Positions 7,836 to 37,983 of a stretch of 64,000 bases of DNA are shown here, one piece after another. Both the position numbers and the translations under genes were made by a program. Origin of the DNA: Escherichia coli (lineage in GTDB: Bacteria > Pseudomonadota > Gammaproteobacteria > Enterobacterales > Enterobacteriaceae). Within the stretch, counting starts at the first letter, position 1, and the number at the start of each line of letters is the position of its first letter. Under the pieces are notes generated by a model. That model was not told where the DNA came from and searched no databases. It worked only from the letters and a program-made list of their open reading frames with translations. Location of the stretch: assembly GCF_044324875.1 (NCBI RefSeq), contig NZ_CP172185.1; one strand, given 5' to 3'.

Positions 7836-8507
7836 ATGCAGTACCCGATTAACGAGATGTTCCAGACCCTGCAAGGTGAGGGTTACTTTACCGGCGTCCC
7901 CGCCATTTTTATTCGTTTACAGGGATGCCCGGTTGGCTGTGCCTGGTGCGACACCAAACACACCTGGGAAAAGCTTGAGGATCGGGAAGTCTCCCTTTTC
8001 AGCATTCTGGCGAAGACCAAAGAGAGTGATAAGTGGGGGGCGGCGAGCAGTGAAGACTTGCTGGCTGTCATTGGTCGCCAGGGATACACCGCGCGGCATG
8101 TGGTGATTACGGGTGGTGAGCCTTGCATTCATGATTTGCTGCCACTGACTGACCTGCTCGAAAAGAACGGTTTTAGCTGCCAGATCGAAACCAGTGGTAC
8201 TCATGAGGTACGCTGCACACCGAATACCTGGGTTACCGTATCGCCAAAGCTGAACATGCGCGGCGGCTATGAAGTGTTGTCACAGGCACTGGAGCGAGCC
8301 AACGAAATCAAGCATCCAGTGGGACGCGTACGTGATATTGAAGCACTGGATGAACTACTGGCAACACTGACCGATGATAAACCGCGAGTCATTGCACTGC
8401 AGCCGATTAGCCAAAAGGATGATGCTACTCGTTTATGTATCGATACGTGCATTGCGCGCAACTGGCGTTTGTCGATGCAAACGCATAAATATTTAAATAT
8501 TGCCTGA
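7836..8507 (+). CDS. queE: 7-carboxy-7-deazaguanine synthase (radical SAM)
   Basis: 223 aa; radical-SAM Cys motif CPVGCAWCDT; position next to CRISPR array as in E. coli ygcF. Confidence 0.92.
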   Translation: MQYPINEMFQTLQGEGYFTGVPAIFIRLQGCPVGCAWCDTKHTWEKLEDREVSLFSILAKTKESDKWGAASSEDLLAVIGRQGYTARHVVITGGEPCIHDLLPLTDLLEKNGFSCQIETSGTHEVRCTPNTWVTVSPKLNMRGGYEVLSQALERANEIKHPVGRVRDIEALDELLATLTDDKPRVIALQPISQKDDATRLCIDTCIARNWRLSMQTHKYLNIA

Positions 8508-8689
8508 TTAAACATTTATAAGCGTTATAAATGGGTGGAACCTGTAAAGACTTCTACTCATTTATATTCTTTGTCGCCTCTGAAAAACCTCCATTTTGCC
8601 CATCCTGAACTAATCATTATCATTCTCTACAAATTTTATGGCGTTAATTTTTCGTTGGAGTGAAAATTATTGCGGTGAAATTTGGTAGA

Positions 8690-8845
8690 TTTTAGTTTGA
8701 ATAGAGTTATTTCAAATATTTATCTTTTTAATCAATGGATTAAATGCTCTTTAACATAATGGATGTGTTGTTTGTGTGATACTGTAAAGTTGGTAGATTG
8801 TGACTGGCTTAAAAAATCATTAATTAATAATAGGTTATGTTTAGA
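8690..8845 (+). promoter_or_regulatory. CRISPR leader (AT-rich) for array at 8846
   Basis: AT-rich tract directly 5' of first repeat; contains motif AGTTGGTAGATTGT 44 bp upstream of repeat 1, also present at the same spacing in the second leader (37409..37422). Confidence 0.65.
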
Positions 8846-9118
8846 GAGTTCCCCGCGCCAGCGGGGATAAACCGCTTCATCTGTCGGGCTAACTGGACAA
8901 AGAAACGAGTTCCCCGCGCCAGCGGGGATAAACCGTCGGTTTGACATCAAAGAAGCCATCAATCAGGGAGTTCCCCGCGCCAGCGGGGATAAACCGGTCT
9001 GGCCATAGGAACAAAGAAATTTGTCTTTGAGTTCCCCACGTCAGCGGGGATAAACCGGACACAGAGCGCCGCTATAGCGCCTATGCCAAGAGTTCCCCGC
9101 GCCAGCGGGGATAAACCA
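8846..9118 (+). CRISPR. Type I-E CRISPR array, 5 repeats / 4 spacers (29-bp repeat GAGTTCCCCGCGCCAGCGGGGATAAACCG, 32-bp spacers)
   Basis: Repeats start at 8846, 8907, 8968, 9029, 9090 (61-bp period); repeat 4 has two substitutions, repeat 5 ends A instead of G. Confidence 0.97.
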
Positions 9119-9571
9119 CCATATAACCCGTTATCTCTTTCTCAAGTTTTTATATTAGCAGTACTTGTAATAAGCAACATATCCACGTAACACCTCATGT
9201 TCAAAATAGTTCTCCATGCCAGAGAAGTTCACAATTATCGATACAAAAAATTAAATTTAATCAAAGTGTTATTTGTATGATTCTTAAATCGTTAAGAAAT
9301 TTTAATATATTATTTTTTTAATATTAATTAATGCCTGTTAATTTTTTCTTTAGAATAACAGTGTATTTTTTAAGCTTATTATTCATTGATTAAGTAATAA
9401 ATCTGGAAATTTGTCTTTGTTTTGAGGCTAATGAGTGATTTTACATAATCGCCTCTATACGCTGTTGATGAATAGTTCTTATGAATAAAGATATCCAGTT
9501 CATACTTTAAGTGAAAATTGATAAAGTGCGATTCGTATTGTCTTTTATTCTAAAGACATCGAGTGTAGTTA

Positions 9572-9709
9572 ATATTCCTTGTAAAAACAGGGATAAACCG
9601 AACTAGTTAAAGTTTTTATTATGTTCCCTGCATCAGCGGGGATAAACCGGACTTGTTATCATTTTTTAAGTTGTCGAACTTATGTTCCCCGCGTCAGCGG
9701 GGATAACCA
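9572..9709 (+). CRISPR. Degenerate CRISPR remnant (2 recognisable repeats at 9621 and 9682 with one 32-bp spacer, plus a partial repeat ending 9600)
   Basis: ATGTTCCCTGCATCAGCGGGGATAAACCG and ATGTTCCCCGCGTCAGCGGGGATAACC read directly; no convincing leader. Confidence 0.65.
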
Positions 9710-9755
9710 TTCAGGTATGTTCAGGCCGGGCAGTTTCCCGCCCGGTCTTCCTCAC

Positions 9756-11234
9756 TTACGCATTCGACCAGCTCTGGATCGAATCTTCATTCCCCAGCTC
9801 ACCATGCATCACTTCATACGATTTTTTCAGGATCACATCAGTGTGTTTGGTTAGGTCTTTGAAAATGCCTTTATTCATCGCGTTGTAGCGTTTGGCGTTG
9901 CTCTCAACAGGCATAAAGATATCTTTCACGCGAACCATTTTGTCGACAGCCGTTGCGTAATCCGGGTATAGCCCCAGACCTACCGCCGTATTAATCGCTG
10001 CCCCCAGGCTTGCACAACCATTAATGGCGTTACGGCGTGCCGGAAGGTTGAACACGTCGGCAAAAATCTGCATAAACAGATCGCTGTTCGAACCGCCGCC
10101 AGTAATGATCACATGCTTTGCAAAGTGATTCATTTCATTACACATATTGTCGTAATTGTTCTTCAGCGTCAGCGCCACGCTTTCCAGTATCGAACGATAT
10201 ATCCATGCGTAATCCATGCTGGAATCAAAGCCAATCATAATCCCGCGTTTGTACGGTTCCCACGGATTGGTCAGCCAGTCCAGCACCGTCATCAGACCAT
10301 TACAGCCTGGCGGCACACAAGAAGCTTTTTTGTTGAGTAAATCTTCCGGTGAAAGATCCTGCGCCCTGGCATCCTGAATTAACGACTCGCCTAGCATGTC
10401 GCGCAGCCAGCTCACCGTCCACATGCCTTTGCGAATACCGTAACCTTCATACAGCAAGGTTTGCGGAATAGAAGACATAATCGGCCAGTACGCTACCGGA
10501 TCTTTCGGCAGTACTTTGCCGTTCATCATCAACGCGATGTAAGTGCCAAGAGAAATTACCGCAGTTTCATCATCCAGTAACCCGGCTCCCAGTGCTTCTA
10601 CCGGTTTATCACTGGTGGTACAAACAACCGGCAGCCCAGCCGGGAAATGTGTCGCCAGCGCGGCTTGAGGAGTGATATGCCCAAGAACAGTGCCCGGCAT
10701 TTGCACATCAAACAGCATATGACGGGGGATATTAAACTTCTCCATGACTGCGGCATCTTCACTCCATGCCCAGGTCTTATAATCCACCGGCCACTGACCA
10801 AAATAGTTGGCGATATTGTCTTTAAACTCGCCGGTTAAGCGATGCGTCAGATAACCCGAAAAAGAGGTGACATATGCCACGTCAGGATTCGTATGTTCGT
10901 AAGGGCGTGTAACGCGTGCATCCTGCCAGCTAATCAACGGCGCAGCTGGCGTGCCATCGGCTTTCAATAACGCACGGCAGCAACGGATGGATCCCAGACC
11001 AATACCGACAATATCTTCTTTATTTCCGGCAAACTGACTCATCAAATCGTGACCGGCAAAGCATAATGATGCCCATAAATCGTCGTCAGGATGTTCTGCG
11101 GTATCGGCATCTGGCGTGTGCATCGGCTGCAATAAGCCTTTGCCTTCGCAAACCACATTACCTTCCAGATCGTACATCACCACTTTTGTGCTCTGACTTC
11201 CACCATCAATCCCTATGATGTATTTTTTCGACAT
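9756..11234 (-). CDS. ygcE: FGGY-family carbohydrate kinase
   Basis: 492 aa; N-terminal IGIDGGSQSTK typical of FGGY kinases. Confidence 0.88.
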   Translation of the reverse strand: MSKKYIIGIDGGSQSTKVVMYDLEGNVVCEGKGLLQPMHTPDADTAEHPDDDLWASLCFAGHDLMSQFAGNKEDIVGIGLGSIRCCRALLKADGTPAAPLISWQDARVTRPYEHTNPDVAYVTSFSGYLTHRLTGEFKDNIANYFGQWPVDYKTWAWSEDAAVMEKFNIPRHMLFDVQMPGTVLGHITPQAALATHFPAGLPVVCTTSDKPVEALGAGLLDDETAVISLGTYIALMMNGKVLPKDPVAYWPIMSSIPQTLLYEGYGIRKGMWTVSWLRDMLGESLIQDARAQDLSPEDLLNKKASCVPPGCNGLMTVLDWLTNPWEPYKRGIMIGFDSSMDYAWIYRSILESVALTLKNNYDNMCNEMNHFAKHVIITGGGSNSDLFMQIFADVFNLPARRNAINGCASLGAAINTAVGLGLYPDYATAVDKMVRVKDIFMPVESNAKRYNAMNKGIFKDLTKHTDVILKKSYEVMHGELGNEDSIQSWSNA

Positions 11235-28808: not shown

Positions 28809-31508
28809 ATGCGTAAATATCCTTTAAGTTTACTGAAGGATAAAAATATTGTGACTTTTTTTGATTTCTGGGGAAAAACCCGACGCGGCGAGAAAGACGG
28901 GGGCGACGACTATCACCTTCTTTGCTGGCATTCGCTGGATGTAGCCGCGATGGGCTATTTAATGGTTAAAAGCAATTGCTTCGGGCTGACTGACTATTTT
29001 CGTCAACTAGGTTTCGCTGATACGGAGCAGGCAGCACAATTTTTCGCCTGGCTATTGTGCTGGCACGATACTGGAAAATTTGCCCGCTCTTTTCAGCAAC
29101 TTTACCTGCACCCACAACTCAAGGTTCCGGAAGGCGCAAGAAAGAATTACGAAAAGATCTCTCATTCAACGCTGGGCTACTGGCTGTGGCATCATTATTT
29201 AAGTGAATACGAAGAATTGCTTCCTTCATCTTCACTCTCTCCGCGCAAACTTAAACGGGTGATGGAGATGTGGATGCCCATAACTACCGGGCATCATGGT
29301 CGCCCGCCTGACCGTATTGATGAACTGGATAATTTTCTGCCTGAAGACAAAGCTGCCGCGCGAGATTTTCTTCTTGAAATCAAACCACTGTTTCCGCTCA
29401 TAGAGATCCCCGCATTCTGGGATGATGATGAGGGCATTGAACTTATAAAACACCTTTCCTGGTATATCTCTGCAACCGTCGTGCTCGCAGACTGGACGGG
29501 TTCGTCAACGCGATTTTTTCCACGCGTCGCACACCCAATGGATATTAAAGGTTACTGGCAGAAAACTTTAGTTCAGGCTCAAAACGCCTTAACCGTCTTT
29601 CCTCTAAAAGCAAAAGTCGCGCCTTTCACCGGAATTAATACGCTGTTTCCTTTTATTGAGAATCCGACACCGTTACAGCAAAAGGTGCTGGATCTGGATA
29701 TCAGCCAGCCAGGGCCACAGTTATTTATTCTGGAAGATGTGACTGGCGCAGGTAAAACGGAAGCGGCGCTTATCCTGGCGCACAGGTTGATGGCTGCGGG
29801 TAAAGCGCAGGGTTTGTTTTTTGGCCTGCCAACAATGGCAACGGCCAATGCCATGTACGATCGACTGGTCAAAACCTGGCTTGCTTTCTATTCGCCAGAG
29901 TCCCGCCCCAGCCTGGTGCTGGCACACAGTGCCCGAACATTAATGGACCGCTTTAATGAATCACTCTGGTCCGGTGATTTAGTCGGGTCAGAAGAACCGG
30001 ATGAACAAACGTTCAGTCAGGGATGTGCGGCCTGGTTTGCCGACAGTAACAAGAAGGCGCTACTGGCTGAAATTGGCGTCGGCACGCTGGATCAGGCGAT
30101 GATGGCTGTGATGCCGTTCAAACATAATAATCTGCGGCTTCTGGGACTGAGTAACAAAATCCTGCTGGCTGATGAGATCCATGCCTGTGACGCTTACATG
30201 TCATGCATTCTTGAAGGGCTGATCGAGCGGCAGGCGCGTGGCGGAAACAGCGTCATTTTGCTTTCTGCCACGTTATCTCAACAGCAGTGCGACAAACTCG
30301 TTGCTGCCTTTGCGCGTGGTACAGAGGGCCAGCAAGAAGCTCCGTTCCTGGAAAAGGATGATTACCCCTGGCTGACGCACGTTACGAAATCCGATGTGCA
30401 TTCACACCGGGTAGCGACGCGCAAAGACGTTGAGCGTAGCGTGAGCGTGGGTTGGCTTCATAGCGAACAAGAATGTATTGCGCGTATCGAATCGGCAGTA
30501 AGTCAGGGGAAATGCATCGCCTGGATCCGGAATTCTGTCGATGACGCTATTAAGGTTTATCGTCAGTTGCTTGCCCGCGGCGTCATTCCTGCTTCCAGCC
30601 TTTCTCTGTTTCATAGCCGCTTTGCTTTTAGCGATCGCCAGCGAATTGAAACGGAAACGCTGGCACGCTTCGGTAAAGAAGATAGCTCACAGCGTGCCGG
30701 AAAAGTCCTCATTTGTACTCAGGTCTTAGAGTCGAGCGTTGATTGCGATATGGACGAAATGATTTCCGACCTGGCCCCTGTTGATTTGCTGATCCAGCGA
30801 GCGGGGCGATTACAGCGGCATATCCGCGATATTAATGGTCAGTTAAAGCGTGACGGAAAAGACGAGCGTTCCCCTCCTGAATTGCTGATTCTGGCCCCCG
30901 TCTGGGACGACGCTCCAGGTGACGAATGGTTCGGCAGTGCCATGCGTAACAGTGCATATGTCTATCCCGATCATGGACGAATCTGGCTGACGCAGCGTGT
31001 ACTGCGTGAGCAAGGCGCTATTCAAATGCCACACGCAGCCCGCCTTCTTATTGAATCAGTCTACGGTGAGGACGTGGTAATGCCGGAAGGATTTGCCCGC
31101 AGCGAGCAGGAGCAAGTGGGCAAATATTACTGCGATCGCGCAATGGCTAAAAAGTTTGTGCTGAACTTCAGGCCTGGCTATGCCGCCAATATCAACGATT
31201 ACCTTCCGGAAAAGCTGTCGACACGTCTGGCGGAGGAGTCTGTTTCCCTGTGGCTGGCTACCTGTATTGCCAGTGTGGTGAAGCCTTATGCCAACGGTGC
31301 TCACGCATGGGAAATGAGCGTTGTCAGAGTGCGTCGAAGCTGGTGGAAAAAACATCGGGATGAGTTTTCTTTACTGGAAGGGGAAGCGTTCAGGCAGTGG
31401 TGCATTGAACAGCGGAAAGATCCGGAGATGGCAAACGTGATTTTAGTTACCGATGACGAAAGTTGCGGGTATTCGGCTATGGAAGGATTGACTGGCAAGG
31501 TTGGTTGA
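28809..31508 (+). CDS. cas3: Cas3 nuclease/helicase (type I-E)
   Basis: 899 aa; HD nuclease motifs (LLCWHSLDVAA, WHDTGKF), DEAH-type helicase (GAGKTEAA, LADEIHA); immediately precedes cse1. Confidence 0.93.
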   Translation: MRKYPLSLLKDKNIVTFFDFWGKTRRGEKDGGDDYHLLCWHSLDVAAMGYLMVKSNCFGLTDYFRQLGFADTEQAAQFFAWLLCWHDTGKFARSFQQLYLHPQLKVPEGARKNYEKISHSTLGYWLWHHYLSEYEELLPSSSLSPRKLKRVMEMWMPITTGHHGRPPDRIDELDNFLPEDKAAARDFLLEIKPLFPLIEIPAFWDDDEGIELIKHLSWYISATVVLADWTGSSTRFFPRVAHPMDIKGYWQKTLVQAQNALTVFPLKAKVAPFTGINTLFPFIENPTPLQQKVLDLDISQPGPQLFILEDVTGAGKTEAALILAHRLMAAGKAQGLFFGLPTMATANAMYDRLVKTWLAFYSPESRPSLVLAHSARTLMDRFNESLWSGDLVGSEEPDEQTFSQGCAAWFADSNKKALLAEIGVGTLDQAMMAVMPFKHNNLRLLGLSNKILLADEIHACDAYMSCILEGLIERQARGGNSVILLSATLSQQQCDKLVAAFARGTEGQQEAPFLEKDDYPWLTHVTKSDVHSHRVATRKDVERSVSVGWLHSEQECIARIESAVSQGKCIAWIRNSVDDAIKVYRQLLARGVIPASSLSLFHSRFAFSDRQRIETETLARFGKEDSSQRAGKVLICTQVLESSVDCDMDEMISDLAPVDLLIQRAGRLQRHIRDINGQLKRDGKDERSPPELLILAPVWDDAPGDEWFGSAMRNSAYVYPDHGRIWLTQRVLREQGAIQMPHAARLLIESVYGEDVVMPEGFARSEQEQVGKYYCDRAMAKKFVLNFRPGYAANINDYLPEKLSTRLAEESVSLWLATCIASVVKPYANGAHAWEMSVVRVRRSWWKKHRDEFSLLEGEAFRQWCIEQRKDPEMANVILVTDDESCGYSAMEGLTGKVG

Positions 31509-31605
31509 GATGCCTGCGACAGGGCTCTCTGAATAGTTGATACACCGAAAAGGATGGAATGATGGACAACCGACCTGGGATGGTCTTTTTTACGAGAGGA
31601 TGCGT

Positions 31606-33168
31606 ATGAACTCGTTTTCACTTCTGACAACCCCGTGGTTGCCCGTTCGTTATAAAGACGGAACGACAGGCAAACTGGCGCCTGTCGATCTGGCGGATGA
31701 AAATGTTGTCGATATTGCTGCGCCACGGGCAGATCTCCAGGGAGCGGCATGGCAGTTTTTGCTGGGGCTACTACAAACCAGCTTTGCGCCAAAAGATCAT
31801 CGTCGTTGGGATGATATCTGGGAAGACGGACTGGAATCTGAAAAGCTACGGGAAGCATTGCTGTCCTTAGAACACGCTTTCCAGTTTGGGCCAGATTCCC
31901 CTTCATTTATGCAGGATTTCGAGGCGCTCACAGGAGATAAAGTTCAGGTCGCTTCGCTACTGCCTGAGATTCCCGGCGCTCAAACAACGAAGTTTAATAA
32001 AGACCACTTTATCAAGCGTGGTGTAACGGAATACCTGTGCCCACATTGTTCTGCGTTAGCTCTGTTCTCCCTACAGTTAAATGCGCCGTCAGGTGGTAAA
32101 GGCTACCGCACCGGTTTACGCGGCGGTGGGCCGATGACCACTCTGATTGAATTACAGGAATATCAGGGCAATCAACAAACGCCCTTGTGGCGCAAACTGT
32201 GGCTCAATGTGATGCCGCAGGACGAAGCCGACTTACCGCTACCCAAAAAATTTGACGATCTGGTTTTCCCCTGGCTTGGCCCGACGCGTACCAGCGAACT
32301 GGCCGGTGCGGTGGTAACCGATGATCAGGTTAATAAACTCCAGGCGTACTGGGGAATGCCGCGGCGTATTCGTATTGATTTTAATACCACGACAGTCGGC
32401 AACTGCGATATTTGCGGCGAGCAGAACGACGCGCTCCTGAGCCTGATGACGACCAAAAATTACGGCGCGAATTATGCCATGTGGCAGCATCCCTTAACGC
32501 CTTACCGTGTACCCCTTAAAGAGGGCGGCGAGTTTTACTCGGTCAAACCACAACCAGGCGGTTTAATCTGGCGCGACTGGTTAGGCCTTATCGAAACGGG
32601 TAAATCAGAAAACAATACGGAACTTCCCGCGCTGGTGGTGAAACTCTTTAATGCCAGCAGTCTCAAGCAGGCAAAAGTGGGCCTGTGGGGATTTGGTTAT
32701 GATTTTGACAACATGAAAGCGCGCTGTTGGTACGAACACCATTTTCCGCTGCTGCTCGATAAAAAAGAAGGCCAGATACCGAAGCTGCGGCTGGCTGCGC
32801 AAACGGCTTCACGGATTCTGAGTCTGTTACGGAGTGCATTGAAAGAAGCGTGGTTCTCCGATCCAAAAGGTGCACGGGGTGATTTCAGTTTTGTGGATAT
32901 CGACTTCTGGAACAAAACTCAGCATCGCTTCCTGAGGTTAGTGCGCCACATTGAAGAAGGTCAGGATGCGGATGAATTACTCAGCAAATGGCAAAAGGAA
33001 ATTTGGTTATTCGCGCGTCAGGATTTTGACGAGCGTGTCTTCACCAATCCATATGAGCCCGTTGATTTGAAACGCGTCATGACCGCGCGCAAGAAATATT
33101 TTACAACATCGGCGGAGAAGCAAAATGCTAAAGCCGCCAGGGAGAAAAAGCAGGAGGCTGCTGAATGA
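31606..33168 (+). CDS. casA: Cascade large subunit Cse1/CasA
   Basis: ORF 31537..33168; start set at ATG 31606 (MNSFSLLTTPWLPVR), 6 nt after GAGG; size and position fit Cse1. Confidence 0.85.
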   Translation: MNSFSLLTTPWLPVRYKDGTTGKLAPVDLADENVVDIAAPRADLQGAAWQFLLGLLQTSFAPKDHRRWDDIWEDGLESEKLREALLSLEHAFQFGPDSPSFMQDFEALTGDKVQVASLLPEIPGAQTTKFNKDHFIKRGVTEYLCPHCSALALFSLQLNAPSGGKGYRTGLRGGGPMTTLIELQEYQGNQQTPLWRKLWLNVMPQDEADLPLPKKFDDLVFPWLGPTRTSELAGAVVTDDQVNKLQAYWGMPRRIRIDFNTTTVGNCDICGEQNDALLSLMTTKNYGANYAMWQHPLTPYRVPLKEGGEFYSVKPQPGGLIWRDWLGLIETGKSENNTELPALVVKLFNASSLKQAKVGLWGFGYDFDNMKARCWYEHHFPLLLDKKEGQIPKLRLAAQTASRILSLLRSALKEAWFSDPKGARGDFSFVDIDFWNKTQHRFLRLVRHIEEGQDADELLSKWQKEIWLFARQDFDERVFTNPYEPVDLKRVMTARKKYFTTSAEKQNAKAAREKKQEAAE

Positions 33169-33701
33169 GTATTGTAAAAGAGGAGCACAAAGCCACGCTG
33201 CGTAAATGGCACGAAGAGTTGCAGGAAAAACGCGGCAATCGTGCCAGTCTGCGGCGTAGCACAACGGTTAATGATGTTTGTCTGTCAGAAGGGTTTCGTT
33301 CTCTGCTGATGCAGACCCACACTTTGTGGAAAATTGAAGCACAAGAGTGGCGTTTTACCGCACTGGCGCTGGTCGCCGCAGTTAGCGCCAATGTTAAAGC
33401 TATTGATGAACGGCAGCCTTTTGCCGCGCAGCTGGCGGCGGTAATGTCGGAGGGGCGTTTTACTCGCCTGTCGGCAGTAAAAACGCCTGATGATTTACTG
33501 CGTCAGTTACGTCGCGCGGTCAAATTATTAAATGGTTCCGTCAATCTTATCTCTTTGGCAGAAGATATTTTCCGCTGGTGCCAGGAGAGCGACGACCTGC
33601 TCAATCATCACCGCCGCCAGCAGCGGCCAACAGAATTTATCCGTATCCGCTGGGCGCTGGAATATTACCAGGCTGGCGACGCCGATAACGAACAAAATTA
33701 A
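33165..33701 (+). CDS. casB: Cascade small subunit Cse2/CasB
   Basis: 178 aa; start overlaps casA stop (ATGA). Confidence 0.85.
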   Translation: MSIVKEEHKATLRKWHEELQEKRGNRASLRRSTTVNDVCLSEGFRSLLMQTHTLWKIEAQEWRFTALALVAAVSANVKAIDERQPFAAQLAAVMSEGRFTRLSAVKTPDDLLRQLRRAVKLLNGSVNLISLAEDIFRWCQESDDLLNHHRRQQRPTEFIRIRWALEYYQAGDADNEQN

Positions 33702-33715
33702 TAAAGGACTATCTC

Positions 33716-34771
33716 ATGACGACATTTATTCAGCTTCATTTGTTAACCGCTTACCCTGCTGCCAACCTTAACCGTGATGACACCGGTGCGCCAAAAACTG
33801 TGGTACTGGGTGGAGCAACGCGTCTGCGCGTTTCCTCACAAAGTCTGAAACGTGCGTGGCGCACTTCTGCACTTTTTGAACAGGCACTGGCGGGCCATAT
33901 TGGTATTCGCAGTGGGCGTATTGCGCGTGAGGCGGCAACTATCCTGATTGAGAAAGGCATCGAAGAGAAAAAAGCCATCGAATGGGCGGCAAAAATTGCG
34001 GATTATCTTGGGAAAGCTAAAAACGACAAAAAACCAAAAGATCCGCTCACTAACGCCGAAACTGAACAGCTAGTCCATATCAGCCCGGCAGAATTTGACG
34101 CCGTAAAAGCGCTGGCCCATCAACTGGCCGAAGAAAAGCGCGCGCCAAAAGAGGAAGATCTCGCTTTGTTACGTAAAGATCGCATGGCGGTAGATATCGC
34201 TATGTTTGGTCGTATGCTGGCGAATAAACCCGAATTTAATGTTGAAGCCGCCTGCCAGGTCGCGCATGCATTTGGTGTCAGTGAAACGATTGTCGAAGAT
34301 GATTTTTTCACCGCCGTTGATGATTTGCGCCAGGCTTCTGAAGATGCCGGTGCCGGGCATCTTGGTGAAACCGGATTCGGTTCTGCGCTGTTCTACACCT
34401 ATATCTGCATCGATAAAGATCTGCTGGTCGAAAACCTCGGCGGTGACGAAGCGTTAGCTAATCAGACCTTGCGCGCCTTTACGGAAGCCGCACTTAAAGT
34501 CTCCCCAACCGGCAAACAGAACAGCTTTGCCAGCCGTGCCTACGCCTCCTGGGCGCTGGCAGAAAAAGGCACTGAACAACCACGCTCTCTGGCGGCGGCT
34601 TTCTATGAACCCATTAATGGCACCCGGCAGTTAGATGTGGCGGTGCAGCGTATTACAACGCTTCGCGAAAATATGAATACGGTCTATGAACAGAAGACCG
34701 AATGCGCAAGCTTTGACGTGATGAACAAACAGGGAAGCATGAAGGACGTGCTGGACTTTATCTGCGCGTAA
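33716..34771 (+). CDS. casC: Cascade backbone Cas7e/CasC
   Basis: 351 aa; position and size in the type I-E operon. Confidence 0.88.
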   Translation: MTTFIQLHLLTAYPAANLNRDDTGAPKTVVLGGATRLRVSSQSLKRAWRTSALFEQALAGHIGIRSGRIAREAATILIEKGIEEKKAIEWAAKIADYLGKAKNDKKPKDPLTNAETEQLVHISPAEFDAVKALAHQLAEEKRAPKEEDLALLRKDRMAVDIAMFGRMLANKPEFNVEAACQVAHAFGVSETIVEDDFFTAVDDLRQASEDAGAGHLGETGFGSALFYTYICIDKDLLVENLGGDEALANQTLRAFTEAALKVSPTGKQNSFASRAYASWALAEKGTEQPRSLAAAFYEPINGTRQLDVAVQRITTLRENMNTVYEQKTECASFDVMNKQGSMKDVLDFICA

Positions 34772-34781
34772 GGGGCGGCTA

Positions 34782-35528
34782 ATGAGCCAATATTTGATTT
34801 TTCAGCTTCATGGGCCAATGGCATCCTGGGGCGTCGATGCCCCCGGCGAAGTGCGTCATACCCATGAACTGCCTTCGCGCTCAGCATTGCTGGGGCTGCT
34901 GGCTGCCGGGGTAGGGATTCGGCGTGATGATACCGAACGATTAAACGCGTTTAACCGCCACTATTCACTGGTGGTTTGCGCCAGCCGTAACCCGCGCTGG
35001 GCACGGGATTATCACACGGTCCAGATGCCAAAAGAGGTGCGTAAAGCGCGTTATTTCAGCCGTCGCGAAGAGTTGAGCGCCCCTGATCTTCTGAGCGCGA
35101 TTATCTCCCGGCGCGACTACTACACCGATGCCTGGTGGATGGTGGCGGTGGCAACAACCCCCGATGCGCCTTACAGGCTTGAACAGTTGCAGGACGGTTT
35201 ACGTCATCCGGTTTTTCCGCTTTATCTGGGGCGAAAAAGTCATCCGCTGGCGTTACCACTTGCGCCGTTACTGCTCGAAGGCAACGCGTCTGATGTCTTA
35301 CGTAACGCATACCAACAGTATCAGGATAGTTTCCGCGAACTGAAAGTCTCACTCCCGAAACTTCAGGATGAATGCTGGTGGGAAGGGGAACACGACGGCC
35401 TGGTCGCGAGCAAAATATTACGTCGCCGGGATGTTCCTTTAAATCGTCAGCAGTGGCTGTTTGGGGAACGCACCATCAATCAGGGGCCGTGGCTCAGCAA
35501 GGAGGAACCATGTACCTCTCAAGAATAA
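34782..35528 (+). CDS. casD: Cascade Cas5e/CasD
   Basis: 248 aa; position and size in the type I-E operon. Confidence 0.85.
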   Translation: MSQYLIFQLHGPMASWGVDAPGEVRHTHELPSRSALLGLLAAGVGIRRDDTERLNAFNRHYSLVVCASRNPRWARDYHTVQMPKEVRKARYFSRREELSAPDLLSAIISRRDYYTDAWWMVAVATTPDAPYRLEQLQDGLRHPVFPLYLGRKSHPLALPLAPLLLEGNASDVLRNAYQQYQDSFRELKVSLPKLQDECWWEGEHDGLVASKILRRRDVPLNRQQWLFGERTINQGPWLSKEEPCTSQE

Positions 35529-36156
35529 CCTTACATACCGGCCAGCTTTTGCCTGCGCAGTTGCTGCATTTGGTGGATCGCGGTGAATATGTAATGCATC
35601 AGTGGCTGTGGGATCTTTTTCCTGGCGGCAAAGAAAGGCAATTTCTTTATCGTCGGGAAGAACTCCAGGGGGCGTTTCGCTTTTTTGTCCTGTCGCAGGA
35701 ACGCCCGGCGGAAAGTGATATTTTCACCATCGAATGCCGACCATTTGCGCCAGAGTTGCGTACCGGACAATCCCTTTGTTTCAACCTGCGGGCGAATCCA
35801 ACAATTTGTAAAGCGGGCAAACGCCACGACTTGCTGATGGAGGCGAAACGGCAGGTGAGGGGGCAGGTGGAAGGAAGTGATGTCTGGTTGCATCAACAAC
35901 AGGCGGCGCTGGACTGGCTGGCAGCGCAGGGGGAAAGAAGCGGTTTTACACTACTGGATACCTCGGTCGATGCCTACCGACAACAGCAACTGCGGCGGGA
36001 AAACTCCCGGCAACTGATCCAGTTCAGTAGCGTGGATTATACGGGGATGCTTACGGTCACCGATCCTGGGTTATTTCTGCAACGTCTCAGTCAGGGGTAT
36101 GGCAAAAGCCGGGCGTTCGGTTGTGGTCTGATGCTGATCAAACCCGGAGCAGAGGC

Positions 36157-36160
<4 letters not shown>
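35510..36160 (+). CDS. casE: Cas6e/CasE pre-crRNA endoribonuclease
   Basis: ORF 35372..36160; start set at ATG 35510 (MYLSRITL) after AGGAGG; overlaps casD end. Confidence 0.88.
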
Positions 36161-37370
<1,210 letters not shown>

Positions 37371-37466
37371 GTTAGACGTTCTTTAAAAATAAGGAAATGT
37401 TTGAATTTAGTTGGTAGATTGTTGATGTGGAATAAATTTGTTTAAAAACAGATATGTATGCTTAGT
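37371..37466 (+). promoter_or_regulatory. CRISPR leader for cas-adjacent array
   Basis: AT-rich 96 bp between cas2 stop and first repeat; contains AGTTGGTAGATTGT at 37409..37422. Confidence 0.75.
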
Positions 37467-37983
37467 GTGTTCCCCGCGCCAGCGGGGATAAACCGCTTTT
37501 GTTTCTGATTTCTACGCCTGTGGGTAAGTGTTCCCCGCGCCAGCGGGGATAAACCGGAGCAACTACTCGCAGCACAACAGGCAGGTAGGTGTTCCCCGCG
37601 CCAGCGGGGATAAACCGTTTTCTCTAATTACAGTGATTTTTCAAAATCCGTGTTCCCCGCGCCAGCGGGGATAAACCGCGATTCAAAAATAAAATGACGA
37701 CGGAGGAGGCGTGTTCCCCGCGCCAGCGGGGATAAACCGCCGTCGAAGTGACCATGCTCTTTCATTGTGATGTGTTCCCCGCGCCAGCGGGGATAAACCG
37801 AACACAGCGTAAAACCGTCGCAGCCATGCCGAGAGTTCCCCGCGCCAGTGGGGATAAACCGATTGGTCGGTTATGCATCCTGCTAACCAGATTGTGTTCC
37901 CCGCACCAGCGGGGATAAACCGTAATATTAGACTAATGTTTTTTTGTTGAGTTCGTGTTCCCCCGCCACTGCGGTAGAACTCC
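37467..37983 (+). CRISPR. Type I-E CRISPR array, 9 repeats / 8 spacers (repeat GTGTTCCCCGCGCCAGCGGGGATAAACCG; terminal repeat degenerate)
   Basis: Repeats start at 37467, 37528, 37589, 37650, 37711, 37772, 37833, 37894, 37955 (61-bp period); repeats 7 and 8 carry point changes; repeat 9 is GTGTTCCCCCGCCACTGCGGTAGAACTCC. Confidence 0.97.

What the first reader, a model, noticed from the sequence alone, without database searches (positions are those of the whole stretch)
9119..9709. AT-rich tract with degenerate repeats downstream of the first array: remnant array
After the last repeat of the queE-side array there is about 450 bp of very AT-rich sequence, then a partial repeat (..CAGGGATAAACCG, ending 9600), a 20-bp gap, and two further recognisable repeats (9621, 9682) separated by a proper 32-bp spacer. 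This looks like a decayed array whose leader has been lost or replaced.
Basis: seen in the sequence. Interest (0 to 1): 0.3.

Follow-up and report, generated by a model that had tools for sequence, protein, structure and literature searches.

The report
Known E. coli CRISPR2.2 remnant array
This is the already described "CRISPR2.2" mini-array of Escherichia coli: the old tail end of the queE-side CRISPR array, cut off from its leader by about 450 bp of AT-rich DNA and never extended since, although it is more conserved than a decaying relic should be.

Summary
After the fifth repeat of the queE-side array (8846-9118) come 453 AT-rich bases (9119-9571). Then follow a degenerate but full-length repeat (9572-9600), a 20-nt spacer, a repeat (9621-9649), a 32-nt spacer and a truncated terminal repeat (9682-9709).

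[quoted passage not shown] It occurs in about 4,100 of 5,426 complete E. coli genomes. Its 32-nt spacer is identical in 4,048 of 4,062 of them.

The upstream tract has no homology to either functional leader, and the mini-array has not visibly gained a spacer in any genome examined.

E. albertii, E. whittamii and B2 strains such as UTI89 lack the tract. In them leader 2.3 feeds one continuous array that ends in the same terminal repeat. CRISPR2.2 is therefore the trailer end of that array, not a separate array that lost its own leader.

One point is unexplained. The block 9450-9709 is far less variable than both flanks and than the ygcE coding sequence, so "frozen" describes it better than "decayed". 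Interest is low.

The parts
7836..8507 (+). queE (ygcF), the left flanking gene of the CRISPR-II locus
   Evidence: ORF read. The orthologous loci are annotated queE in RefSeq. The protein is 85-100% identical to 80 Enterobacteriaceae QueE loci.
8508..8845 (+). Leader 2.3, the AT-rich leader of the queE-side array. Its proximal part carries AGTTGGTAGATTGT (8788-8801), which is shared with leader 2.1.
   Evidence: It is 93% identical in E. albertii. The literature says leaders adjoin CRISPR2.1 and CRISPR2.3 only (PMC3903273, PMC3737337).
8846..9118 (+). CRISPR2.3: five repeats (8846, 8907, 8968, 9029, 9090) and four 32-nt spacers. The last repeat ends in A instead of G.
   Evidence: Spacers 1 and 2 match phage P1 gene 22 at 100%. 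Array length varies from 1 to 21 repeat cores among strains.
9119..9153 (+). Start of the AT-rich tract. 9122-9153 looks like a true old spacer ('X-prime').
   Evidence: It matches 23/32 positions, ungapped and in spacer register, with the trailer-most spacer of the continuous array of E. coli SC418 (L012 1243-1274). This is the single outlier among 1,416 spacer comparisons (mean 8.0, sd 2.6; next best 18). Only 1 variable site falls in 9118-9165 among 9 genomes.
9154..9571 (.). AT-rich non-array DNA that separates CRISPR2.3 from CRISPR2.2. It has a hypervariable core (9166-9449) and a conserved 3' part (9450-9571). It holds no ORF longer than 35 aa.
   Evidence: Composition. ORFs. No homology to the leaders. 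No phage or plasmid match. Absent from 80 other queE loci, including E. albertii and E. whittamii. Present at >=80% coverage in 4,128 of 5,426 E. coli genomes. Variable-site densities.
9207..9235 (+). Candidate relic of a further repeat inside the tract (TAGTTCTCCATGCCAGAG...). It matches 13/18 of the 5' part of the repeat, including the GCCA loop.
   Evidence: By local block shuffles, P is about 0.001 for the 18-mer and about 0.016 for the 29-mer. It starts 365 nt (6 x 61 - 1) before 9572. This is tentative, because 16/29 matches are common elsewhere in the window.
9572..9600 (+). First CRISPR2.2 repeat. It is degenerate: 11 changes, all within the first 18 nt, while the last 11 nt GGGATAAACCG are perfect. 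The hairpin is kept through two C-G to U-A changes and one C-G to U-G change.
   Evidence: Invariant in 9 genomes.
9601..9620 (+). 20-nt 'spacer', 12 nt shorter than normal. Invariant between strains.
   Evidence: It has weak similarity to 9125-9153 (P about 0.014) and to the 32-nt spacer (P about 0.06).
9621..9649 (+). Second CRISPR2.2 repeat (ATGTTCCCTGCATCAGCGGGGATAAACCG). The hairpin is intact apart from one G-U pair.
   Evidence: One polymorphic site (9629) in 9 genomes.
9650..9681 (+). 32-nt invariant spacer GACTTGTTATCATTTTTTAAGTTGTCGAACTT
   Evidence: 100% identical in 4,048 of the 4,062 genomes that carry it. There is no second copy in E. coli genomes, no phage or plasmid match, and the only IMG/VR exact hit is the same chromosomal locus.
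9682..9709 (+). Terminal repeat, truncated and divergent after GATAAC (ATGTTCCCCGCGTCAGCGGGGATAACCA). It is the ancestral end of the whole queE-ygcE array.
   Evidence: The same terminal repeat and downstream junction occur in UTI89, SC418, GF3-3 and EC-1639, E. albertii and E. whittamii.
9723..9748 (.). G+C-rich hairpin just downstream of the ygcE stop codon. It is the probable ygcE terminator and the right boundary of the locus.
   Evidence: Predicted in both strand folds. It was not flagged by the terminator scan because it lacks a T run.
9756..11234 (-). ygcE (FGGY-family carbohydrate kinase), the right flanking gene, convergent with queE
   Evidence: ORF. RefSeq annotation of the orthologous loci.
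28809..37370 (+). Complete type I-E cas operon (cas3, cse1, cse2, cas7, cas5, cas6e, cas1, cas2). It would supply Cas6e and Cascade if the mini-array is transcribed.
   Evidence: Pfam matches for all eight products.
37371..37983 (+). Leader 2.1 (37371-37466) and CRISPR2.1 (eight repeats 37467-37922, plus a degenerate terminal repeat 37955-37983). Used here as the comparison leader and array.

Best explanation
The feature is the published CRISPR2.2 array of the E. coli CRISPR-II (queE/ygcF-ygcE) locus. It is the leader-distal, oldest end of the type I-E array whose leader lies next to queE.

About 420-450 bp of AT-rich DNA sits in the position of a spacer, between the last CRISPR2.3 repeat and the first CRISPR2.2 repeat, and divides the array in two.

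From established I-E biology, Cas1-Cas2 with IHF inserts new spacers only at the repeat that abuts a proper leader. By inference, the part beyond the tract can therefore no longer grow, so it keeps the same three repeats and two spacers in every strain.

It is lost only by recombination between repeats. That recombination fuses the two parts again ('CRISPR2.2-3') or collapses them.

I judge it more likely (about 0.6) that the tract was gained in an E. coli lineage than that it was ancestral and lost several times.

Whether the mini-array is transcribed, by read-through from the leader 2.3 promoter or from the AT-rich tract, and processed by Cas6e into a crRNA was not tested. Its three repeat hairpins and 5'-handle sequences would allow it.

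Shown here, distribution and invariance:
- The 591-nt tract is present at >=80% coverage in 4,126 of 5,426 complete genomes.
- The 138-nt block is >=99% identical in 3,925 of 4,156 genomes.
- The 32-nt spacer is identical in 4,048 of 4,062 genomes.
- Meanwhile CRISPR2.3 ranges from 1 to 21 repeat cores with different spacers.

Shown here, no leader:
- No homology of the tract to leader 2.3 or 2.1, and no leader-proximal motif.
- Promoter-like sites are not above shuffle expectation.

Shown here, trailer-end status:
- UTI89, E. albertii, E. whittamii and SC418 have leader 2.3, then a continuous array, then the identical terminal repeat ...GCGTCAGCGGGGATAACCATTCAGG, then the ygcE hairpin, with no tract.

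Shown here, recombinational loss:
- EC-1639, a close relative (99.4% in the flanks, shares window spacer 2), joins a CRISPR2.3 repeat directly to the 32-nt CRISPR2.2 spacer.
- GF3-3 has one hybrid repeat.
- 2015C-3121 has collapsed CRISPR2.2 to one repeat.

Shown here, the tract:
- It begins with a real spacer (23/32 match to the last spacer of SC418).
- It is absent from 80 other Enterobacteriaceae queE loci.
- It has no phage or plasmid match.

All three repeats keep the canonical hairpin.
Against: - Polarity is not proven. Deletion by repeat-repeat recombination is demonstrably easy, so the tract-free state of B2 strains, E. albertii and E. whittamii could be secondary. E. fergusonii, E. 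marmotae, E. ruysiae and phylogroups D, F and G were not examined.
- No source, mobility signature or mechanism for the tract was found. There are no terminal inverted repeats, and the 10-nt direct repeat GGGATAAACC is explained by the CRISPR repeats themselves.
- A purely inert relic should drift, yet 9450-9709 has about 2-3 variable sites per 100 nt. This compares with about 17 in the tract core, 17 in the terminator spacer and 20 at ygcE third codon positions.
- Absence of acquisition is inferred from population invariance, not from an experiment.
Confidence: 0.8

Rival explanations
1. One reading: CRISPR2.2 was an independent array with its own leader. The 450-bp AT-rich tract is that leader, now decayed or replaced, and the array is eroding.
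For: The tract is AT-rich, lies directly 5' of the repeats in the correct orientation, and is leader-sized. The first repeat is degenerate and the first spacer is short. The ygcE/ygcF intergenic region was reported as an RNA-polymerase-binding 'promoter island' in K-12 (PMC2731890), though I could not check its coordinates.
Against: - There is no similarity to leader 2.3 or 2.1 beyond chance: 19-21/60 against 35/60 between the two leaders, and z about 2 or less. The shared leader motif is missing.
- In a live array the leader-proximal repeat is the newest and best preserved. Here it is the most degenerate.
- Tract-free relatives and outgroups end their leader-2.3 array in the same terminal repeat.
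- The tract itself starts with a spacer homologous to a trailer spacer of a continuous array.
- The block is not eroding.
Confidence: 0.07
2. CRISPR2.2 together with about 120 nt upstream (9450-9709) is a functional element kept by purifying selection. Candidates are an orphan pre-crRNA giving one or two fixed crRNAs, or a Cas-independent small RNA or protein-binding site. On this reading it is not merely an inert leftover.
For: - The block has 6-7 variable sites in 260 nt among 8-9 genomes representing at least 5 haplotypes. It is the lowest of all 260-nt windows in a 1.9-kb alignment, where ygcE coding windows hold 12-32.
- The density of 2-3 per 100 nt equals that of ygcE first and second codon positions. 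Third positions show about 20, the tract core 17.3 and the terminator spacer 17.4. Fisher p = 0.0014 against the coding sequence.
- It is less variable than the integration-critical 60 nt of leader 2.3, which shows 6.7 per 100 nt.
- No variable site falls in the two spacers or the degenerate repeat.
- The degenerate repeat keeps the hairpin through double changes and keeps a perfect GGGATAAACCG, which is the 3' strand of the stem plus the 8-nt crRNA 5' handle.
- Both strands of 9450-9755 fold with z about -5, though most of that comes from the repeat hairpins and the terminator.
Against: - No transcript, promoter or target is known. There is no promoter-like site inside the block. The nearest one (9422-9449) has CATAAT only in this strain and CATAAC in K-12-like strains.
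- The 32-nt spacer has no match in phages, plasmids, IMG/VR or elsewhere in E. coli genomes.
- The element is dispensable. About 23% of genomes lack it and sporadic deletions occur.
- Keeping the hairpin after five transitions has a chance probability of about 0.16 by my own count.
- Diversity in this region is patchy because of recombination, as shown by the run of third-position changes at 8426-8462 in queE.
- Flanking genes can import alleles from tract-free lineages while tract-specific DNA cannot. That would lower its diversity without selection. The sample is 9 genomes plus coarse identity bands.
Confidence: 0.25
3. The tract is a decayed transposable element (IS or MITE) that inserted into one repeat with a 10-bp target duplication, GGGATAAACC at 9108-9117 and 9590-9599. 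On this reading 9572-9589 would be element DNA, not repeat.
For: The sequence reads exactly as one repeat interrupted after ...GGGGATAAACC and resumed at GGGATAAACCG. All 11 differences of the 'degenerate repeat' lie upstream of that point. By my count, the chance of that happening by position alone is about 1e-3.
Against: - There are no terminal inverted repeats, no transposase or other ORF, and no second copy in any E. coli genome (median 1 place per genome). There is no match in the plasmid or phage collections.
- 9572-9589 forms the canonical hairpin in register (P about 0.007) and matches the neighbouring repeat at 11/18, which no control reaches.
- The first 32 nt after the left 'junction' are a spacer homologue, not element DNA.
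Confidence: 0.05

Closest known systems
E. coli CRISPR2.2 array of the CRISPR-II locus (Diez-Villasenor et al. 2010, Microbiology 156:1351; summarised in PMC4489801, PMC3903273, PMC3737337, PMC10910852). I recall it also being called CRISPR2b or K-12 'CRISPR III', but I did not verify those names here.
   Same: - Same place: between queE/ygcF and ygcE, on the ygcE side.
- Same type-2 (I-E) repeats.
- Three repeats with two invariable spacers.
- About 0.5 kb of AT-rich DNA separates it from CRISPR2.3.
- No associated leader.
- Fused 'CRISPR2.2-3' variants occur in other strains.

The K-12 sequence is 100% identical over 9572-9709.
   Different: Nothing of substance. This strain differs from K-12 at 9 positions of the tract. 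One of them, T at 9449, creates a better -10-like hexamer.
Trailer-end (leader-distal) repeats and spacers of CRISPR arrays in general
   Same: These are the oldest units, shared between strains by descent. The terminal repeat is degenerate at its 3' end, as in CRISPR2.1 of this window (37955-37983). No new spacers are added there.
   Different: Here the trailer is physically separated from the rest of the array by about 420-450 bp of non-repeat DNA. One trailer repeat is degenerate in its 5' two thirds rather than at its 3' end. One spacer is only 20 nt.
CRISPR leader (E. coli leader 2.1 and leader 2.3)
   Same: The tract is AT-rich, non-coding, a few hundred bp long, and immediately 5' of repeats in the right orientation.
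   Different: It has no sequence homology, lacks the conserved proximal motif, shows no evidence of directing acquisition, and abuts the most degenerate repeat rather than the best preserved one.
'Promoter islands' of E. coli K-12 (Shavkunov et al. 2009, PMC2731890)
   Same: That paper lists a promoter-rich cluster between the convergent genes ygcE and ygcF that binds RNA polymerase with little productive transcription. It also mentions a predicted sRNA (HB_171) there. The extreme AT content of 9166-9449 fits that class.
   Different: I could not obtain the island's coordinates because no supplement is held. It could be leader 2.3, the tract, or both. My simple sigma-70 scan found no excess of promoter-like sites.

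Membership tests
E. coli CRISPR2.2 (CRISPR-II locus) | Lies between queE (ygcF) and ygcE, adjacent to the 3' end of ygcE | tested here: met
   queE is at 7836-8507 and ygcE at 9756-11234 on the minus strand. The array at 9572-9709 lies 46 nt from the ygcE stop codon.
E. coli CRISPR2.2 (CRISPR-II locus) | Three type-2 repeats and two spacers that do not vary between strains | tested here: met
   Repeats start at 9572, 9621 and 9682. The block is >=99% identical in 3,925 of 4,156 genomes. The 32-nt spacer is identical in 4,048 of 4,062 genomes. No variable site falls in either spacer in 9 genomes.
E. coli CRISPR2.2 (CRISPR-II locus) | Separated from CRISPR2.3 by about 0.5 kb, with no leader of its own | tested here: met
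   453 nt lie between 9118 and 9572. There is no leader homology.
Type I-E CRISPR array (generic) | Direct repeats of the family consensus with the conserved stem-loop | tested here: met
   24/29, 23/28 and 18/29 identity to the consensus. All three fold into the 7-bp stem and 4-nt loop in register.
Type I-E CRISPR array (generic) | Regular 61-nt period (29-nt repeat plus 32-nt spacer) | tested here: inconclusive
   The distance is 61 nt between 9621 and 9682 but 49 nt between 9572 and 9621, because of the 20-nt spacer.
Type I-E CRISPR array (generic) | Leader with integration signals directly upstream of the first repeat | tested here: not met
   Its functional leader, if any, is leader 2.3, 726 nt upstream of 9572.
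Type I-E CRISPR array (generic) | Strain-to-strain spacer polymorphism as a trace of acquisition | tested here: not met
   By contrast, CRISPR2.3 has 1-21 repeat cores.
Type I-E CRISPR array (generic) | Transcription and Cas6e processing into crRNA | not testable with these tools
   Only the prerequisites were checked: hairpins, the AUAAACCG handle and cas6e are all present.
Type I-E CRISPR array (generic) | Cognate cas genes in the genome | tested here: met
   cas3 through cas2 lie at 28809-37370.
Insertion sequence / MITE | Terminal inverted repeats, target-site duplication, multiple copies or a transposase | tested here: not met
   There are no terminal inverted repeats. The 10-nt direct repeat is accounted for by the CRISPR repeats. 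No ORF exceeds 35 aa. There is a single copy per genome and no plasmid or phage homologue.

The most novel reading that the evidence does not exclude
CRISPR2.2 plus the roughly 120 nt before it (9450-9709) is not junk. It would be a selectively maintained element, for example a fixed orphan pre-crRNA. Its 32-nt guide, and perhaps its 20-nt guide (12 nt shorter than normal), would serve a conserved non-immune or anti-element role. Alternatively it could be a Cas-independent RNA or DNA site. This would explain why the block is more conserved across E. coli than the neighbouring genes while the array next door turns over completely.
Probability: 0.2. Interest if true: 0.55.

Novelty: already known. 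Interest (0 to 1): 0.15.

Why it matters
As it stands the finding matters little. It re-identifies a feature of the E. coli CRISPR-II locus that has been catalogued since 2010, and PGAP left it unannotated in most of the E. coli records listed here.

The useful outputs are:
- A cleaner anatomy: a full-length degenerate repeat, and a tract that begins with a true spacer.
- Evidence that the mini-array is the trailer of the queE-side array, not a second array.
- Natural examples of how repeat-repeat recombination removes the tract.

The one point that could matter is the conservation contrast. If the block 9450-9709 is truly under purifying selection, E. coli would carry a fixed, species-wide CRISPR-derived element with a function outside adaptive immunity. 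That can be tested directly by RNA-seq and deletion.

Tried and rejected
1. The tract as a diverged copy of leader 2.3 or 2.1. Local alignments are no better than shuffles and the -60..-1 identity is 19-21/60. Rejected.
2. The tract core as an inverted partial copy of leader 2.3, prompted by collinear 10-12-nt matches. Equal numbers of matches occur in both orientations and P is about 0.05 against shuffles. Rejected as AT-rich word sharing.
3. IS or MITE insertion. No terminal inverted repeats, ORF or extra copies were found. Rejected.
4. Phage or plasmid origin of the tract, or a protospacer for the invariant spacers. Only CRISPR repeats in misfiled chromosomes and chance hits were found. The single IMG/VR exact hit is the E. 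coli locus itself.
5. Rfam. Only sub-threshold 'Chlorobi-1' hits on CRISPR2.3 repeats, which I read as chance.
6. Small proteins. The only ORFs in the conserved block are 9511-9606 on the plus strand (31 aa, GTG start) and 9441-9503 on the minus strand (20 aa). I saw no Shine-Dalgarno-like sequence, and the polymorphisms at 9524 and 9529 fall on codon positions 2 and 1. Not pursued.
7. The whole tract as a decayed stretch of array. Only one candidate relic (9207-9235) was found. In-phase positions 9267 to 9511 show nothing. Left as tentative.
8. The three 'spacers' (9122-9153, 9601-9620, 9650-9681) as paralogues from unit duplication. P ranges from 0.014 to 0.12. Suggestive only.
9. Strain HH45 (L002) looked like a very different locus, but its sequence degrades into low-complexity G/A runs. 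I judged it an assembly artefact.
10. Diez-Villasenor 2010 and Pougach 2010 could not be read because they are not held. What I say about the first comes from papers that cite it.
Full report
**Setting**

The window is Escherichia coli chromosome. queE (ygcF) lies at 7836-8507 and ygcE at 9756-11234 on the opposite strand. Orthologous RefSeq loci carry those names. A complete type I-E cas operon (cas3 to cas2, 28809-37370) is followed by a second leader and array at 37371-37983. The finding sits in the intergenic region known in the literature as the CRISPR-II locus.

**The observation**

- The queE-side array has five 29-nt repeats with a 61-nt period, starting at 8846, 8907, 8968, 9029 and 9090. 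It is preceded by a 338-nt AT-rich leader.
- After the last repeat, which ends ...AAACCA rather than ...AAACCG, come 453 nt of AT-rich DNA with G+C as low as 0.14.
- Then comes CAGGGATAAACCG ending at 9600, followed by 20 nt.
- Next are a repeat at 9621-9649, a 32-nt spacer, and a terminal repeat at 9682-9709 that diverges after GATAAC.
- The repeat core occurs 14 times in the window against none in shuffles.

One correction is needed. The 'partial repeat' is a whole repeat (9572-9600) whose first 18 nt have diverged.
- It still folds into the same 7-bp stem and 4-nt loop, in the same register, as the canonical repeat.
- Only 6 of 872 18-mers from the tract would give that result.
- It matches the neighbouring repeat at 11/18 in the diverged part. 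No control 18-mer reaches that.

**What it is**

This is the published CRISPR2.2 array.
- PMC3903273 states that CRISPR-II holds either two arrays "separated by 0.5 kb" or one fused array, and that leaders adjoin only CRISPR2.1 and CRISPR2.3.
- K-12, E. coli B and O157:H7 carry it.
- PGAP leaves it unannotated in most of the records listed.

**Population picture**

- The 591-nt interval is found at >=80% coverage in 4,126 of 5,426 complete E. coli genomes, always on the chromosome, with a median of one copy per genome.
- The 138-nt mini-array is >=99% identical to the window in 3,925 of 4,156 genomes.
- Its 32-nt spacer is identical in 4,048 of 4,062 genomes.
- In nine genomes whose CRISPR2.3 arrays have between 1 and 21 repeat cores and different spacers, CRISPR2.2 differs at three positions only, all inside repeats.
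- I saw no genome with an additional spacer there.

**No leader**

- The tract shows no alignment to leader 2.3 or 2.1 beyond chance.
- The 60 nt before 9572 or 9621 match the two leaders at 19-21 positions, whereas the leaders match each other at 35.
- The motif AGTTGGTAGATTGT shared by both leaders is absent.
- Promoter-like hexamer pairs are no more frequent than in shuffles.

**It is the tail of the queE-side array, not a second array**

- In UTI89 (phylogroup B2), leader 2.3 is followed by one repeat, one spacer and then GAGTTCCCCGCGTCAGCGGGGATAACCATTCAGG. That is the same terminal repeat and ygcE-side junction as 9682 onward in the window.
- The type strain of E. albertii has leader 2.3 (93% identical), three repeats and the same terminal repeat.
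- E. whittamii has the leader and only that terminal repeat.
- E. coli SC418 and UK_Dog_Liverpool have continuous multi-spacer arrays ending the same way.
- None of these has the AT-rich tract. It is also absent from all 80 Enterobacteriaceae queE loci retrieved and from the phage and plasmid collections.
- The first 32 nt of the tract proper (9122-9153) match the last spacer of the SC418 array at 23/32, ungapped and in spacer register. This is the lone outlier among 1,416 comparisons. The tract therefore begins with a genuine old spacer, and the non-array DNA is about 9154-9571.

**How it changes**

Recombination between repeats removes the tract.
- EC-1639 is 99.4% identical in the flanks and shares the window's second spacer. 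It joins a CRISPR2.3 repeat directly to the 32-nt CRISPR2.2 spacer.
- GF3-3 retains a single hybrid repeat.
- 2015C-3121 keeps the tract but has collapsed CRISPR2.2 to one repeat.
- In other strains the scr sucrose operon occupies the site next to ygcE, as reported in PMC11251922.

Because such deletions are easy, the absence of the tract from outgroups does not prove that it was gained. I put a single gain within E. coli at about 0.6.

**Mechanism**

It is established for type I-E systems that Cas1-Cas2 with IHF integrates spacers at the leader-abutting repeat. By inference, units beyond 450 bp of unrelated DNA are out of reach and stay fixed. That the units have stayed fixed is shown by the population data.

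Expression was not testable here. All three repeats keep the Cas6e-type hairpin. The two upstream ones keep AUAAACCG, the crRNA 5' handle. cas6e and the Cascade genes are present. A transcript crossing the region could therefore yield a normal crRNA with the 32-nt spacer and a short one with the 20-nt spacer.

**Origin of the tract**

This remains unknown.
- The tract has no ORF above 35 aa and no terminal inverted repeats.
- Its 10-nt flanking direct repeat GGGATAAACC is simply part of the CRISPR repeat.
- An apparent inverted copy of leader 2.3 in the core did not survive a shuffle test.
- One candidate relic of another repeat lies at 9207-9235. It matches 13/18 of the 5' part including the GCCA loop, with P about 0.001-0.016, and sits 6 x 61 - 1 nt before 9572. 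This hints that some of the tract may be array-derived, but no other in-phase relic exists.
- Shavkunov et al. list the ygcE/ygcF intergenic region among K-12 'promoter islands' that bind RNA polymerase unproductively (PMC2731890). I could not confirm the coordinates.

**An unexplained point**

Variation is very uneven across the interval. The table gives variable sites per 100 nt among eight to nine genomes representing at least five haplotypes.

| Segment | Variable sites per 100 nt |
|---|---|
| 9166-9449 (tract core) | 17.3 |
| 9450-9571 (tract 3' part) | 3.3 |
| 9572-9709 (CRISPR2.2) | 2.2 |
| 9710-9755 (terminator spacer) | 17.4 |
| ygcE third codon positions | about 20 |
| ygcE first and second codon positions | 2-3 |

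- The block 9450-9709 is the least variable 260-nt window in a 1.9-kb alignment, with 6-7 sites against 12-32 in coding windows. Fisher p = 0.0014 against the coding sequence.
- It is less variable than the integration-critical 60 nt of leader 2.3, which shows 6.7.
- Genome-wide, only 37 of 4,164 genomes are >=99% identical to the window over the tract, against 3,925 of 4,156 over CRISPR2.2.

Purifying selection on an unknown function is one reading. The alternatives are patchy recombination, the fact that tract-specific DNA cannot receive alleles from tract-free lineages, and a hypermutable AT-rich core. I cannot separate these readings with nine genomes and identity bands.

**Verdict**

However, it is the split-off tail of the neighbouring array rather than a separate array, and it is frozen rather than decaying. 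The feature is already known, so interest is low. The conservation contrast is the only lead worth following.

Noticed in passing
window 8875-8906 and 8936-8967: Spacers 1 and 2 of the queE-side array match the tail-sheath gene 22 of phage P1 and P1-like phage-plasmids (P7, RCS47, SJ46) at 100%. The two protospacers lie about 490 bp apart on the same strand. Several hundred plasmid records also match this four-spacer query (733 records in all). The listed ~96-183 kb records match spacers 1 and 2 at 100%.
   Followed up: partly
window 8883-8905 vs 8997-9019; 9016-9029 vs 9406-9419: Spacers 1 and 3 of CRISPR2.3 are 74% alike over 23 nt with an 8-nt offset, as if taken from the same site of two related elements. 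The end of spacer 3 plus the first base of the next repeat (GAAATTTGTCTTTG) recurs exactly inside the AT-rich tract, preceded in both places by TCTGG. Spacers 3 and 4 have no phage or plasmid match.
   Followed up: no
window 9450-9709 (also 9118-9165): These segments are much less variable between E. coli genomes than the tract core, the ygcE terminator spacer and ygcE third codon positions. The block is the least variable 260-nt window in the 1.9-kb region aligned.
   Followed up: partly
window 9207-9235: Possible relic of another CRISPR repeat inside the AT-rich tract (TAGTTCTCCATGCCAGAG, 13/18 to the repeat's 5' part, GCCA loop intact). It is almost in phase (365 nt) with the first CRISPR2.2 repeat. 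This stretch is polymorphic between strains.
   Followed up: partly
window 9422-9449: A promoter-like pair TTGAGG-16-CATAAT lies just upstream of the conserved block. The final T (9449) is present in this strain and one other of the ten aligned (L095). The K-12-like strains and the rest read CATAAC.
   Followed up: no
window 37923-37983: The cas-adjacent array has, after its eighth repeat and a 32-nt AT-rich spacer, a ninth strongly degenerate terminal repeat (GTGTTCCCCCGCCACTGCGGTAGAACTCC). The mismatch search did not list it.
   Followed up: no
L005, L006, L007 (1-2841): In some E. coli strains a sucrose (scr) gene cluster (fructokinase, porin, PTS IIBC) lies directly beside ygcE in place of the CRISPR-II arrays. 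This has already been reported (PMC11251922).
   Followed up: partly
L015 4672-4790: The GTDB representative labelled E. coli SCPM-O-B-8794 has no CRISPR-II at all. About 110 nt of unrelated sequence join queE to the ygcE hairpin, as in several Citrobacter and other Enterobacteriaceae loci where ygcE follows queE directly.
   Followed up: no
L002 2320-2990: The CRISPR-II region of strain HH45 degrades progressively into G/A-rich low-complexity sequence. The neighbouring genes are marked as frameshifted or as carrying an internal stop. This is most likely an assembly or consensus artefact.
   Followed up: no
L100 11650-11960; plasmid records NZ_OL790696.1, NZ_CP134663.1, NZ_CP141089.1: An IMG/VR 'viral' contig contains the E. 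coli chromosomal CRISPR-II/ygcE region. Three 4.8-4.9-Mb E. coli chromosomes are filed as plasmids in PLSDB. Both can produce false 'protospacer' or 'plasmid' hits.
   Followed up: yes
window 8426-8462: Among six strains, nearly every third base of this stretch of queE varies (11 sites in 37 nt). This looks like a short recombinant patch from a divergent lineage and is a reminder that diversity here is mosaic.
   Followed up: no
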